Shown here piece by piece: positions 15,001 through 21,000 of a DNA stretch of 64,000 nt. The position numbers were made by a program. Numbering within the stretch: position 1 is the first letter of the stretch; the number at the start of each line of letters is the position of its first letter. This DNA comes from Escherichia coli. GTDB lineage: Bacteria; Pseudomonadota; Gammaproteobacteria; Enterobacterales; Enterobacteriaceae. The stretch lies in NCBI RefSeq assembly GCF_030384885.1, contig NZ_CP128613.1; one strand, given 5' to 3'.

Positions 15001-18000
15001 GCTGGCCGGAAACCGCATTAACGCGCGAGTTGGCACGCCATCCAGCCTTTGTGAACCGCGATGTGTTCCCAATTATTGCCGACCGTCTGACTCAGAAGCA
15101 GCTTTTCGACAAGCTTCACCTGCCGACCGCACCGTGGCAGTTACTTGCCGATCGCAGTGAGTGGCCTGCGGTGTTTGATCGTTTAGGTGAACTGGCGATT
15201 GTTAAGCGTCGCACTGGTGGCTATGACGGTCGCGGTCAATGGCGTTTACGCGCCGATGAAACCGCACAGTTACCGACTGAATGCTACGGCGAATGTATTG
15301 TCGAGCAGGGCATTAACTTCTCTGGCGAAGTATCGCTGGTTGGCGCGCGCGGCTTTGATGGCAGCACTGTGTTTTATCCGCTGACGCATAACCTGCATCA
15401 GGACGGTATTTTGCGCACCAGCGTCGCTTTCCCGCAGGCCAACGCACAGCAGCAGGCGCAGGCCGAAGAGATGCTGTCGGCGATTATGCAGGAGCTGGGC
15501 TATGTTGGCGTGATGGCGATGGAGTGTTTTGTCACGCCGCAAGGTCTGCTGATCAACGAACTGGCTCCGCGTGTACATAACAGTGGTCACTGGACGCAAA
15601 ACGGTGCCAGCATCAGCCAGTTTGAGCTGCATCTGCGGGCGATTACCGATCTGCCGTTACCGCAACCGGTAGTGAATAGTCCGTCGGTGATGATCAACCT
15701 GATTGGTAGCGATGTGAATTATGACTGGCTGAAACTGCCGCTGGTGCATCTGCACTGGTACGACAAAGAAGTGCGTCCGGGCCGTAAAGTGGGGCATCTG
15801 AATTTGACCGACAGCGACACATCGCGTCTGACCGCGACGCTGGAAGCATTAATCCCGCTGCTGCCGCCGGAGTATGCCAGTGGCGTGATGTGGGCGCAGA
15901 GTAAGTTCAGTTAACCTGGTACTCATATTCCTGCCGGATGCGGCGTGAACGCCTTATCCGGCCTACTAATCCGGTACCCATTGTAGGCCTGATAAGACGC
16001 GTCAAGCGTCGCATCAGGCATGGTGCGCCGATTACCGGATGCGGCGTGAACGCCTTATCCGACTACCAATCCGGTACCCATTGTAGGCCTGATAAGACGC
16101 GTCAAGCGTCGCATCAGGCATGGTGCGCCATATGCTGGATGCTCCCATCACGACAGCGAAATACAGGTCCCCGCTTCGCCCGCCAGCGTCTCTTCAATCC
16201 GCGATAACGCCCCAATCCACGCAGGTTTACCACGGCTTCTGACATAGCCACTCACCGCCGTTACCTTCGGTCCCATCGCCCCATCGGCTTTGGCAAATGG
16301 CGCTAACTCATCCGGTGTGGCATGGCGAATGGCGCGTTGCTGCGGCGTTCCCCAGTTTTCATAAACCGCGTCAGCATCGGTGAGGATCACCAGTCCATCG
16401 GCATTAATCTGCTCGGCAAGCAACGCCGCGGCGAGATCTTTATCAATCACCGCTTCACTCCCTGCTCCGTCATCCGTCACCGGAACACCGCCGCCGCCAC
16501 TGCAAATCACCACATGCCCCTCTTTGAGCAACAACTCGATGGCTTCGCTGTCGAGAATTTTACGAGGCTGGGGAGATGCCACCACCCGGCGTAAATATTT
16601 GCCATCACGCTTCATTTTCCAGCCGTAAGCCGTTTCCAGTGCCTCTTGTTCTTCTGGCTGATAAACCGGGCCGATAAACTTCTCTGGCTGCAAAAACGCC
16701 GGATCATCAGACGAAACCTCAATGCGCGTCAGCACCGTCGTGACAGGCGGCATCTGCGGCTGTGCGCTCAAGCTCTGCGCCAGCATATAGCCAATCATCC
16801 CCTGGCTTTCCGCCACCAGCACATCCAGTGGATACGGTTCGACCTCTTTCCACGCCAGATTCTGTAACGCCAGCAGCCCCACCTGTGGCCCGTTGCCGTG
16901 AACAATCGCCAGCCGATAAGCACGCGCCAGGCGCGCCAGCGCGGGAACAGCACTGGCAATATTGCGATATTGATTTTCTGCCGTCAGCGCCTCACCGCGC
17001 TGGAGTAAGGCATTGCCCCCAAGAGCTACAACCAGTGTTTTCATGGTGTTCCTTGTAATAATTGTTGACCAAGCCAGAACCCCAGCAGCGTATCGGCCCC
17101 TGACGTATGCCCCAGCGCCAGCAGCGAATCAATCGCAACAGCGGTACGTTTCGGGCAACTCAGAGCATGAACAAAGTGCAGGAGTGGCGAGGCGAAATAT
17201 CCTTGCGCGGCATAACGCAAATAATTAACGCTCACCGCTGTGGTAACGAGTTGAAGATTGTCGGAACAGGCAAAAAACGGGCGACCGGAGCGCGCATCTA
17301 AAGCGCCATAATACCAGGCTGCCAGCAGCATTCCCGTTAGCGTGTCATCATGACTCGGCGTTAATCCCGGCCCTTTACCCAGCCAGTGCCGCCAGTCGGT
17401 CTTAACGCCATTGAGCGCGGCCTGAAAACAGTGACGAAACTGGCGTAATTCAGCAGGCAGCGGATCGCCTGCCGCCAACGCCAGCGGCCCGAAAAGCCCG
17501 GTTTCCTCCGCGCGTTGCATCCATGCCGCTGCAAGCGGTTGAGGATGCGCAGGCGGCGTAATACGCAGCAAACAATAACGCTGTGGCTGTTTAACCGTGA
17601 AACGCCCGAGGCGAATCCCTTGAGCTACAACCTGTGGTCGTTCATTGCCGCATAATCCACCGCATAACGCATCGAATTGCGCGCGGCGAAGCACCCATCC
17701 TCCGGGACCGAAACCACTTCCCTGACGATGTAGCGTTAACAGTTCGCCACTTTCCGTCAGCAGATTAATCGCTCGCCGCCAGATGCCCGCTAACCGCCAG
17801 GACTGGCGATAGTCTGGTGCACTACGGCTGGCAAGCAGAGGATGGATCATCGTCATTGCGCGTTCCTCAACCAATACCCATGCTTTCAGCCAGAGCTTCC
17901 AGCGCCTGTTCAAAGCACGCCAGCGGTGCCCGCACAGTGCCTGCACCAATCTGCCCGATACCCGCCTCTTTATGGGCGATACCCGTATTGATGAGTGGTG

Positions 18001-21000
18001 TAATGCCGGTTTCTACCACGCGACGAATATCCAGCCCCAGGCACGCGCCCTGGAAATCCCAGCCGGGGATCTGCAACTGCATATTGCGTTCAAGGAAGAT
18101 TTCCGCCATCTCTTCAGATACCGCTCTGGCTGCTTCCATACCACCCGCACCGACAAAGCGCGTTACGCCAGGGGCGGCGATCATTGCCGCACCACCGATA
18201 CCAAAGGTTTCGGTAATCGCGCTATCGCCCATATCCGGGTTCGCCTGCTCCTGCGAGAAGCCGGTGAAAAACAGACCTTGGGGAGTGTTTACAGGCGCAG
18301 TAAACCAGCGTTCGCCCAGCCCGCTGACCCGAATCCCGAACATATTGCCGTTGCGGGTCATAGCCGTGACGATGCTGCCTGCGCGGATCATCGCACCAGC
18401 ATCCATCGCCGCCTTGCAATAGGCCATCGCGAGGTTAAGGAAGAACTGATCGGTCACGCTGAGGAAATCCATCACTTCCGCAATGTGCTGTTTATCATGA
18501 TCGAGGCGAGCAATTTGTGGGGCCAGCGCACGCATTAACAGTGCTGAGGAAGCAATATTGCGTTGATGGAATTCATCGCCCATCGTAATGCCCTGCGCCA
18601 TCATCGCGGTGAGATCGATACCGCGCTCCATGCGCCCCAGCGCCGCGCTTAATACCGGCATTAACACATCACGCATCCAGCGATGGCGAGTCAGGACATC
18701 TTCGCCGTAAGCGCCAAAACGCATCACTTTACCGATACCTTCGTTGAGGTTGCAGTACGCCCGGTTACCGTCGGTCACGTTCTCGACCACCAGCATCGGC
18801 ATACTGGCAGAAGTAATGCCGCCCATTGGCCCGACAGCATTCACATGATGACAAGGAATGAAGTTCACTTCCCCTTGTTCCAGCATCGTCAGTGCCTGCG
18901 CTTCATCTTTCGCCCAGCCTTCAAACAAACACGCGCCCACGCATGCCCCTTTCATGGGCCCGGTCATCTCCTGCCAGCGCATCGGCGGCCCGGCGTGAAG
19001 CAGTGTTTTACCCTGATTTAATTCATTAATGAGTGAAGAAGCCGGTTGCACATCCAGCCAGTGTGGACGAGCGCGACGAATTTGTTCGATAACCGCAGCA
19101 TTGGCTTGCGCCACTGATGTAAACATGGGAACCCCTTATTGCAAACGTTCTAATAAACGAGCCAGTTTTTTATTGCCGCCGGCGACTGGTGACCATTGGT
19201 AATGCACAACCGGTTTGCTGGCGCTTTGTAGTTCCAGCGCAAAGCTGCGTAACCCGATGTTAATCACGGCGACGTTTTCCAGTAGTGACGGTGTGTGTTG
19301 CTGTGTGGCAGGCGAGAGCGGATGAATTAACGCCGCCGCCAGCAAGGTGGCTTCCGGCAGCGAACTCACTACCGCGATCCCTGCATCTTCCAGCGTGGCG
19401 ATTTGCTGCGAGCGGCATTGCGGGTCACGTTCAGTGCCTGTCACTGTGGCAATGGCATACAGTGGTTGATTGTCTGAACGCACGGCACAGGCTTTTTGCC
19501 AGGCGCTTACCAGCGAGGCTGCAGGATCGGTGGTCGCACCGAAGCCAATCACCACATCAAGCAGCAATACGCGCACTTGCGCTTTAGCGCCGAGATCGGC
19601 AATTAACTGGTTGCGTAAGGTTGGGTCGATCATCGGATGGGGACGCCCGACGGTGTAGAAATCATCGCCGAGGTCAATGATCTGGTGACCATCGGCGTCC
19701 AGCATCATGCCGTGATGATGGGTATCGTCGGCTACCACGCCAAGATGCGCGGCAAGTAATCCCGCCGCTTCGGCGGCTAACGTACCGCCGGTATACAAGC
19801 CGCAAATAAATCCGCTGCTGGCAGGCGCTATCGCGTTACGTCGCGCCGTAACGCGTGAAAGCAGGCAAGCCAGGCGCGCAGCCTCATCCAGCGAGGAGGC
19901 AAACCAAACATTCTCGTCGCGAGCCACCGCCGGGATATAACCTAAAAACAGCGCCACCGTCGGTTTGCCGGTTGCTTTCATGGCATTAACAATTTTCAGA
20001 CGCACAGCTTCGGCAGGCGGTTTTGAAACAAATGCCAGCACTTCGCTTTTCGCATCGGTGCTTAACATTTCCAGCGCCGTTAGCGCACTGATGCCGCCCA
20101 CTTCACGGCTGAGATCGCGCCCGCCAAGACCAATCGCGTGAGTAATTCCCTCACCTGCCAGCGCAATCTGTGAGCACAGCTCCTGAATCCCGGTACCGGA
20201 AGCGCCAATGACGCCAATGTTGCCTTCCGGCATCACGTTAGCAAAAGCCAGCGGCGTGGCGGCAATCATCGACGTACCGCAGTCTGGCCCCATCACCAGC
20301 AAGCCTTTTTCCCGTGCGCGGGTTTTAAGTTGGATTTCATCTTCCAGCGTGACGTTATCGGAGAACATCATCACGTTGAGGTTGCGATCCAGCGCCTGAT
20401 TCGCCAATTCCGCCGCATACTCTCCAGCCACTGAAATCAGCGCCAGATTGGCATTGGGTAATTTCTGACTGGCACTATCCCAGCGACGCACCTGCGTCAA
20501 CGCCTGGCTGCTTCCTGTACCCTGTGCCAGTTGTTTTAGCGCCTCTTCAAGCTGCCGCATAATCGCCTGCGCGATCCCTGCATCCGCCGCTTCGCTACGA
20601 ATCGCCACGCAAATATCGTTCGGCGTGGCGTGATTAAAATCGTCATGCCAGAAACCTGTAGTCTCTAATAACGCTTTATTGGCGGGCGTACCCATCATTA
20701 CGGAAACATCATCAACATTTTCTGATTCGCTGAGTTTTCGTGAAATAATCATTAAACTGACCGAATCCTGAAAACACCCTTTTTTAATAAAGGCGTGGAT
20801 CATAACAACTCCTTAAAAATTGCACCCATGGCAATTGCACGAGCAGTGTTAATGTGGCGATTACGGTATAGATGACAACGAGTAAATAAGGTGATGAATA
20901 TCACACAGACATTATTAACAAAAGAATTCAAATAACCGCCAGACTATTACGCGTTATTTTTTAATAAGCATAGTTGTTTTAAAAACTAGGTTAAAAGCGA

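What the first reader, a model, noticed from the sequence alone, without database searches (positions are those of the whole stretch)
17867..19126. ylbE is an intact 419-codon gene (frameshifted in K-12 as I recall)
Established knowledge: the K-12 reference annotates ylbE as a split pseudogene. Here fdrA-ylbE-ylbF-ybcF are all intact with short or overlapping junctions, consistent with a functional operon; it has been linked to anaerobic allantoin/oxamate catabolism, though I am unsure of the details.
Basis: partly seen in the sequence, partly recalled or inferred. Interest (0 to 1): 0.3.

Follow-up and report, generated by a model that had tools for sequence, protein, structure and literature searches.

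The report
Ordinary intact allG (ylbE) gene
This is the normal, intact E. coli gene ylbE (now called allG), one of three subunits of the enzyme that splits oxalurate during anaerobic allantoin breakdown. The "K-12 frameshift" it was contrasted with is a one-base gap in an old reference sequence, corrected in 2013, so being intact is not unusual.

Summary
A 419-codon ATG..TGA ORF occupies window 17867-19126, on the minus strand. It is flanked by intact fdrA, ylbF and ybcF, with a 9-nt spacer, a 10-nt spacer and a 4-nt overlap.

The window is E. coli 2013C-4282 (100% match). The ORF is ylbE/allG (Pfam PF06545 "AllG", 327 bits). It is 98.6% identical in protein to K-12 b4572, with dN/dS 0.03.

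The contrast with K-12 is out of date. NC_000913.3 annotates ylbE as an intact 1260-nt gene that aligns without gaps to the window. The old pseudogene call came from a missing G in a G5 run (gene nt 252-256) plus a silent change at nt 114 in U00096.2. Among 5,417 matching RefSeq records, that allele survives only in W3110 and three MG1655-derived records.

The functional guess is right and already published. AllF-AllG-AllH is oxamic transcarbamylase (oxalurate + Pi <-> carbamoyl phosphate + oxamate). [quoted passage not shown]

Verdict: real, ordinary, already known. Interest is low.

The parts
17867..19126 (-). allG (ylbE) CDS, 419 codons plus TGA; the AllG subunit of oxamic transcarbamylase
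   Evidence: ORF and translation. RefSeq annotates ylbE WP_000495350.1 at these coordinates. Pfam PF06545 AllG, 326.7 bits against a cut-off of 27. Gapless 1260-nt alignment to K-12 b4572 at 95.3% nt, with 6 aa differences. PDB 3CLQ homologue, E 2.7e-111.
18871..18874 (-). Site homologous to the historical K-12 'frameshift': a G4 run (codons 84-86, CAA GGG GAA). K-12 has G5 here (CAG GGG GAA); U00096.2 and W3110 record only G4 in the K-12 context.
   Evidence: Alignment columns 249-257. W3110 against MG1655.3 lacks one G at gene nt 252 and has A at nt 114, giving a stop at codon 87. [quoted passage not shown]
19136..20803 (-). allF (fdrA) CDS, 555 aa; succinyl-CoA-synthetase-alpha-like subunit
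   Evidence: Pfam CoA_binding and Ligase_CoA; NCBIfam NF004760 at 1027 bits. PDB 3DMY.
17041..17856 (-). allH (ylbF) CDS, 271 aa
   Evidence: Pfam PF11392 AllH, 102.5 bits. Annotation.
16148..17044 (-). allK (ybcF) CDS, 298 aa; catabolic carbamate kinase. Its start overlaps the allH stop (ATGA).
   Evidence: NCBIfam NF006926 equivalog, 617 bits. 98% aa identity to K-12 YbcF. Sequence of the overlap.
20804..21119 (.). allD-allF divergent intergenic region (316 nt) holding the allF operon promoter. The K-12 EMSA fragments map to 20947-21006 (AllS, -203/-144) and 20886-20945 (ArcA-P, -142/-83).
   Evidence: The alignment to K-12 has no indels and 12 substitutions. Fragment positions are from PMC12535856, converted by me to window coordinates.

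Best explanation
Window 17867-19126 (minus strand) is the ordinary, functional allG (ylbE) gene of E. coli strain 2013C-4282.

It is the second gene of the allF-allG-allH-allK (fdrA-ylbE-ylbF-ybcF) operon. That operon is transcribed from the allD-allF intergenic promoter under anaerobiosis with allantoin, activated by AllS and ArcA.

AllG assembles with AllF (succinyl-CoA-synthetase-alpha-like) and AllH into oxamic transcarbamylase. This enzyme cleaves oxalurate with phosphate into carbamoyl phosphate and oxamate. AllK then converts carbamoyl phosphate and ADP into ATP, NH3 and CO2. This releases the third nitrogen of allantoin and yields ATP.

Shown elsewhere in K-12: the enzyme activity, the requirement for all three genes, co-transcription and regulation. 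Shown here: orthology, intactness, purifying selection, a conserved promoter region and conserved gene context. Inferred: that the window allele does the same job, and that AllG contributes directly to the active site. On the second point, AllG carries about 20 invariant polar residues, and the two partial combinations that kept some activity (allFG and allGH) both contain allG.

The supposed contrast with K-12 is a legacy sequence artefact. One G of a G5 run was missing in U00096.2; this was corrected in U00096.3.
For: - Identity of the window: 100% match to NZ_CP027579.1, where the ORF is annotated ylbE.
- Family: Pfam AllG at 326.7 bits; neighbours are AllH, FdrA and carbamate kinase.
- Orthology: 413 of 419 aa identical to K-12 YlbE, with no gaps and dN/dS 0.03. 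None of the six substitutions (N34S, Q38E, T80A, M81I, F344Y, G355S) falls on an invariant or nearly invariant column of a 25-sequence alignment.
- Function in K-12 MG1655: ΔallF, ΔallG and ΔallH each abolish or nearly abolish oxamate formation. The triple mutant is restored only by allFGH. Purified AllF-AllG-AllH has Km 1.3 mM for carbamoyl phosphate and 36.9 mM for oxamate, and the activity depends on Mg2+.
- Operon: RT-PCR shows an fdrA-ylbE-ylbF-ybcF transcript; YbcF is a carbamate kinase.
- Regulation: AllS and ArcA-P bind fragments that lie within the intergenic region; that region as a whole is 96% conserved and free of indels in the window.
- Context conserved far away: Gilliamella apicola has allF-allG-allH next to Ldh_2 (allD-like), a carbamate kinase, a cupin, an M20 peptidase and a LysR regulator.
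- K-12 status: intact in NC_000913.3. The frameshift allele is exact over the full probe in only 4 of 5,417 matching records: W3110 and CIT, LIM and CAR, whose record lengths are at or below U00096.2's (as I recall it). Literature.
Against: - Nothing was measured in strain 2013C-4282. Expression and activity of this allele are inferred.
- Plasmid allG alone did not complement ΔallG in K-12 (0 mM oxamate, Table 1). The single-gene genetics for allG is therefore less clean than for allH, and polar effects are possible.
- The subunit stoichiometry and the location of the active site are unknown. There is no structure of the complex.
- The AF2 model is unreliable for residues 300-356.
- Whether W3110 really carries the frameshift or merely inherited a sequence error was not resolved.
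Confidence: 0.93

Rival explanations
1. One reading: ylbE is truly a pseudogene in the K-12 lineage, so an intact copy here marks a functional difference between this strain and K-12.
For: The W3110 RefSeq record annotates ylbE as frameshifted at 1259 nt. Papers that used U00096.2 list ylbE as a pseudogene.
Against: - NC_000913.3 has an intact 1260-nt ylbE.
- Other K-12 records (MG1655 CP032667, C600, ER1709, TG1) carry the extra G or a full 1260-nt match.
- Only 4 of 5,417 records carry the G4 allele over the full probe. Three of these are MG1655-derived records at or below U00096.2's length as I recall it.
- MG1655 makes oxamate, and ΔallG abolishes it.
Confidence: 0.03
2. The ORF is intact, but the operon is silent or non-functional in this strain. 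Possible causes are altered regulation or a defective partner subunit, which would make the gene a relic on its way to decay.
For: - The closest complete genome, EC42405, has fdrA annotated as frameshifted, and AR_0085 has an fdrA-ylbE deletion. Loss therefore does occur sporadically.
- There are 12 substitutions in the promoter region.
Against: - All four genes and the rest of the allantoin regulon, including allS and allR, are intact in the window.
- dN/dS is 0.03 for ylbE and 0.11 for both fdrA and ylbF.
- The promoter region has no indels.
Confidence: 0.04
3. AllG is not catalytic. It would be a scaffold or assembly factor for an enzyme whose chemistry sits in the succinyl-CoA-synthetase-like AllF. 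This is a phosphorolysis analogous to the succinyl-CoA to succinyl-phosphate step.
For: - AllF has CoA_binding and Ligase_CoA domains and matches SCS-alpha structures.
Against: - AllG has many invariant His, Asp, Glu, Lys and Arg residues across sequences down to 45% identity.
- The two partial complementations that gave some oxamate (allFG 7%, allGH 16%) both contain allG.
- The allFH combination was never tested, so this rival remains open. It concerns the subunit's role, not the identity of the gene.
Confidence: 0.3

Closest known systems
E. coli K-12 MG1655 YlbE/AllG (b4572, YP_009029994.1), subunit of oxamic transcarbamylase AllFGH (Kim & Kim 2024, PMC11326118)
   Same: Same length (419 aa), same start and stop, and same neighbours and junction lengths. 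98.6% aa and 95.3% nt identity with no gaps.
   Different: Six conservative or peripheral amino-acid changes. A synonymous CAA instead of CAG at codon 84 shortens the G run from 5 to 4.
PDB 3CLQ, 'conserved protein of unknown function' from Enterococcus faecalis V583
   Different: From a Gram-positive organism. It was deposited without a function and solved alone, not in complex with AllF- or AllH-like partners.
Classical transcarbamylases (ATCase PyrB, OTCase ArgI/ArgF, YgeW)
   Same: They catalyse the same type of reaction, carbamoyl transfer involving carbamoyl phosphate (PMC11326118).
ylbE 'pseudogene' of U00096.2 / W3110 NC_007779.1
   Same: Same locus and gene.
   Different: Those records lack one G of the G5 run at nt 252-256, giving a stop at codon 87. 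The window is in frame.

Membership tests
AllG / YlbE family (Pfam PF06545, formerly DUF1116) | Match to the family HMM above the curated gathering score | tested here: met
   326.7 bits against a cut-off of 27; profile positions 1-215 of 215 are covered.
AllG / YlbE family (Pfam PF06545, formerly DUF1116) | Orthology to the experimentally characterised E. coli K-12 allG (sequence plus synteny) | tested here: met
   413 of 419 aa identical with no gaps. The order allD | allF-allG-allH-allK | purK is the same as in K-12.
AllG / YlbE family (Pfam PF06545, formerly DUF1116) | Fold of the family's solved representative (3CLQ) | tested here: met
Oxamic transcarbamylase AllFGH complex (EC 2.1.3.5) | Co-encoded with the AllF (SCS-alpha-like) and AllH (PF11392) partners in one operon with carbamate kinase | tested here: met
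   Pfam and NCBIfam assignments of the three neighbours. Junctions of 9 nt, 10 nt and a 4-nt overlap. The same trio occurs in Gilliamella.
Oxamic transcarbamylase AllFGH complex (EC 2.1.3.5) | Oxalurate + Pi <-> carbamoyl phosphate + oxamate activity of the encoded proteins | not testable with these tools
   Shown only for the K-12 proteins (PMC11326118). It is inferred for this allele from 98.6% identity.
Classical transcarbamylase superfamily (ATCase/OTCase fold) | OTCase/ATCase N- and C-terminal domains (carbamoyl-phosphate and second-substrate binding) | tested here: not met
   NC_000913.3 has an intact CDS at 548357-549616. Only W3110 NC_007779.1 and three legacy-derived records keep the frameshift.

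The most novel reading that the evidence does not exclude
The G run at codons 84-86 would be a real slippage hot spot, not just a sequencing trap. K-12-type alleles (G5) would then occasionally switch the oxamate branch off, with W3110 as a genuine example. The window allele, shortened to G4 by a synonymous CAA, would be more stable. This would amount to a weak contingency switch on anaerobic nitrogen and ATP recovery from allantoin.
Probability: 0.03. Interest if true: 0.25.

Novelty: already known. Interest (0 to 1): 0.05.

Why it matters
It matters little. The gene, its operon, its enzyme activity and its regulators have been published for K-12 (2022-2025). The gene is present at 80% or more of its length in 5,417 of 5,426 complete E. 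coli genomes.

The useful outcome is a correction. The 'ylbE pseudogene of K-12' is a legacy of U00096.2 that still lingers in the W3110 record. It should not be used as a contrast when reading other E. coli genomes.

The open question is structural and belongs to the family rather than to this window. It is how a three-subunit enzyme performs carbamoyl transfer when its AllG subunit has a fold seen only in PDB 3CLQ.

Tried and rejected
- NCBIfam has no model for YlbE or YlbF, so Pfam was used instead.
- The PDB sequence search for AllH found nothing meaningful.
- No structure of the AllFGH complex and no newer mechanistic paper is in the held library.
- The primary source for the MG1655 stock variants (Freddolino et al. 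2012) is not held. I relied on four papers that describe the same two differences and on a direct comparison of W3110 with MG1655.
- The antisense ORFs inside ylbE (201, 188 and 112 aa) have no Pfam hit and were rejected as genes.
- Consensus promoter and terminator scans found no more sites than in shuffled sequence and are not used as evidence.
- I asked whether the low identity of this ylbE allele to all other genomes (at most 96.0%) points to something special. The whole window is 93-99% identical to K-12. Against the nearest genome it is a mosaic of 99-100% blocks and 93-97% blocks. This is ordinary recombination in a rarely sampled lineage.
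Full report
**Observation**

The ORF listing reports a 419-aa ORF at 17867..19126 on the minus strand with an ATG start. The translation is uninterrupted and ends with TGA.

The neighbouring minus-strand ORFs are:
- fdrA, 19136..20803
- ylbF, 17041..17856 (annotated start)
- ybcF, 16148..17044

allD lies divergently at 21120..22169.

From the sequence, the junctions are:
- fdrA TAA, 9 nt, ylbE ATG
- ylbE TGA, 10 nt, ylbF ATG
- a 4-nt ATGA overlap between ylbF and ybcF

Each start is preceded by a purine-rich Shine-Dalgarno-like stretch. By my own arithmetic, an open frame of this length has a probability of about 2e-9 per start, so it is not a chance ORF.

**Source of the window**

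The window is a 100% match to the chromosome of E. coli strain 2013C-4282 (NZ_CP027579.1; human stool, USA). There, RefSeq annotates fdrA, ylbE (WP_000495350.1), ylbF and ybcF at exactly these positions, none as a pseudogene.

**What the gene is**

- Pfam assigns the protein to PF06545, now named 'Oxamate carbamoyltransferase subunit AllG' (326.7 bits; cut-off 27).
- FdrA carries CoA_binding and Ligase_CoA domains.
- YlbF is PF11392 'AllH'.
- YbcF matches the carbamate-kinase equivalog NF006926 at 617 bits.

Against K-12 MG1655, the gene aligns over 1260 of 1260 nt without gaps at 95.3% identity. There are six amino-acid differences: N34S, Q38E, T80A, M81I, F344Y and G355S. Nei-Gojobori counts give 53 synonymous and 6 non-synonymous differences, so dN/dS is 0.03. 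This shows purifying selection in this frame.

None of the six differences falls on an invariant or nearly invariant column of a 25-sequence alignment reaching down to 45% identity. Positions in that alignment are one lower than true protein positions, because I trimmed the start codon.

The three antisense ORFs have no Pfam match.

**The K-12 comparison**

The current reference NC_000913.3 annotates ylbE (b4572, YP_009029994.1) as an intact CDS at 548357-549616, 1260 nt long.

The recollection has a real origin. Papers that mapped reads to U00096.2 report two differences in ylbE:
- 547,694 A->G, which is silent (gene nt 114)
- 547,831 +G (gene nt 253)

Together these convert the pseudogene into an ORF. 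NCM3722 was described as having 'restored an intact ancestral gene'. EcoCyc documents the 2013 replacement of U00096.2 by U00096.3.

The W3110 RefSeq record still carries exactly that state. It has a 1259-nt 'frameshifted' ylbE. By direct alignment it differs from MG1655.3 only by A at nt 114 and by the loss of one G in the G5 run at nt 252-256. This gives a stop at codon 87.

I used a 61-nt probe carrying the G4 K-12 allele. Over its full length it is exact in only four of the 5,417 records that match: W3110 and strains CIT, LIM and CAR. By my recollection of U00096.2's length (4,639,675 bp), CIT at 4,639,673 bp is within 2 bp of it, while LIM and CAR are shorter. Other K-12 derivatives (MG1655 CP032667, C600, ER1709, TG1) have the extra G or a full 1260-nt match.

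In the window, the homologous site (18871-18874) is G4 because codon 84 is CAA rather than CAG, and the frame is intact.

Intact ylbE is the rule. 5,417 of 5,426 complete genomes hold at least 80% of the gene. In an evenly spaced sample of 60 records, the 59 full-length matches appear to span exactly 1260 nt; I spot-checked several by hand. Exceptions exist: AR_0085 has an internal fdrA-ylbE deletion.

**How it works**

The mechanism is taken from published K-12 work.

- Genetics: In MG1655, ΔallF and ΔallG abolish oxamate formation from allantoin, and ΔallH nearly does (1.2 mM against 17.7 mM). Flux is diverted to oxalate. The triple mutant is fully restored only by allFGH; allFG gives 7% and allGH gives 16%.
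- Enzyme: His-AllF, AllG and AllH-His co-purify. They catalyse oxamate + carbamoyl phosphate <-> oxalurate + Pi, with Km 1.3 mM for carbamoyl phosphate and 36.9 mM for oxamate. The pH optimum is 9 and the activity depends on Mg2+.
- Operon: RT-PCR shows one fdrA-ylbE-ylbF-ybcF transcript, and YbcF is a catabolic carbamate kinase.
- Regulation: Expression needs AllS and ArcA. These bind fragments at -203/-144 and -142/-83 upstream of allF.

In the window, the 316-nt allD-allF spacer has no indels and 12 substitutions relative to K-12. The rest of the allantoin regulon, including allS, allR and allA-E, is annotated intact.

The trio allF-allG-allH also sits beside allD-like, carbamate-kinase, cupin, M20-peptidase and LysR genes in Gilliamella apicola. 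This supports a conserved module.

That the window allele has the same function is an inference from 98.6% identity and conserved context. Nothing was measured in this strain.

**Role of the subunit**

- Sequence search of the PDB likewise finds only 3CLQ.
- FdrA is PDB 3DMY and resembles the succinyl-CoA synthetase alpha subunit.
- AllH has no solved relative, and no structure of the complex exists.

AllG therefore has no fold relationship to ATCase, OTCase or YgeW, in agreement with the paper's sequence-level statement.

AllG carries many invariant polar residues, and both partially active gene pairs contain allG. From this I infer, with modest confidence, that AllG contributes directly to the active site. 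The alternative, that the chemistry sits in AllF and AllG is a scaffold, is not excluded.

**Novelty and verdict**

The feature is real, correctly located and correctly linked to allantoin/oxamate catabolism. It is an ordinary core gene with a published function. The supposed contrast with K-12 rests on an obsolete reference sequence. It is already known, and interest is about 0.05.

Noticed in passing
window 15915-16147 (spacer between ybcF and purK): Two tandem copies of a roughly 95-nt REP/BIME-type palindromic repeat fill the convergent spacer. One copy (15986-16064, minus strand) matches Rfam naRNA4 RF02564 at 73 bits. The consensus scan found no intrinsic terminator for the allF operon here.
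   Followed up: partly
window about 17700-21900, 28100-29700 and 31700-32500: Against the nearest complete genome (EC42405), the window is mostly 99-100% identical but drops to 93-97% in these blocks, which cover ylbF-ylbE-fdrA-allD, allW and gcl. The ylbE allele is at most 96.0% identical to every other one of 5,420 complete genomes. No genome other than the source strain reaches 99%, even for the flanking housekeeping block. This looks like recombination mosaicism in a rarely sampled lineage.
   Followed up: partly
L010 15037-16703 (EC42405) and L009 2774-4439 (AR_0085): The operon is occasionally damaged in other strains. fdrA is annotated as frameshifted in EC42405, and an internal deletion fuses truncated fdrA and ylbE in AR_0085.
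   Followed up: no
window 37255-37967: K-12 has the rhsD-ybbC-ylbH-ybbD-ylbI-ylbG block between selU and ybbP. The window has only a short spacer there, with an annotated dinQ-like type I toxin ORF at 37666-37749.
   Followed up: no
window 50629-64000: Next to cueR lie a HlyD-family adaptor and a type I secretion permease/ATPase. They are followed by a giant BapA/SiiE-like adhesin gene (siiEA, over 21 kb, running off the window) that is annotated as frameshifted. K-12 was not compared at this locus.
   Followed up: no
window 46500-50224: A YadA-family autotransporter adhesin (47229-48245) and several hypothetical ORFs lie between ybbJ and cueR.
   Followed up: no
window 1-2711: An integrase (1456-2619) sits next to a tRNA-Arg gene (2635-2711). 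It has yfdR/yfdT-like prophage genes and a truncated HTH gene. This is the argU integration site occupied by DLP12 in K-12, but with different content.
   Followed up: no
P0002, P0025 (homologue search): A few database proteins fuse the AllG and AllH domains into one chain of 485-548 aa. They come from single assemblies and are probably read-through or frameshift artefacts rather than real fusions.
   Followed up: no
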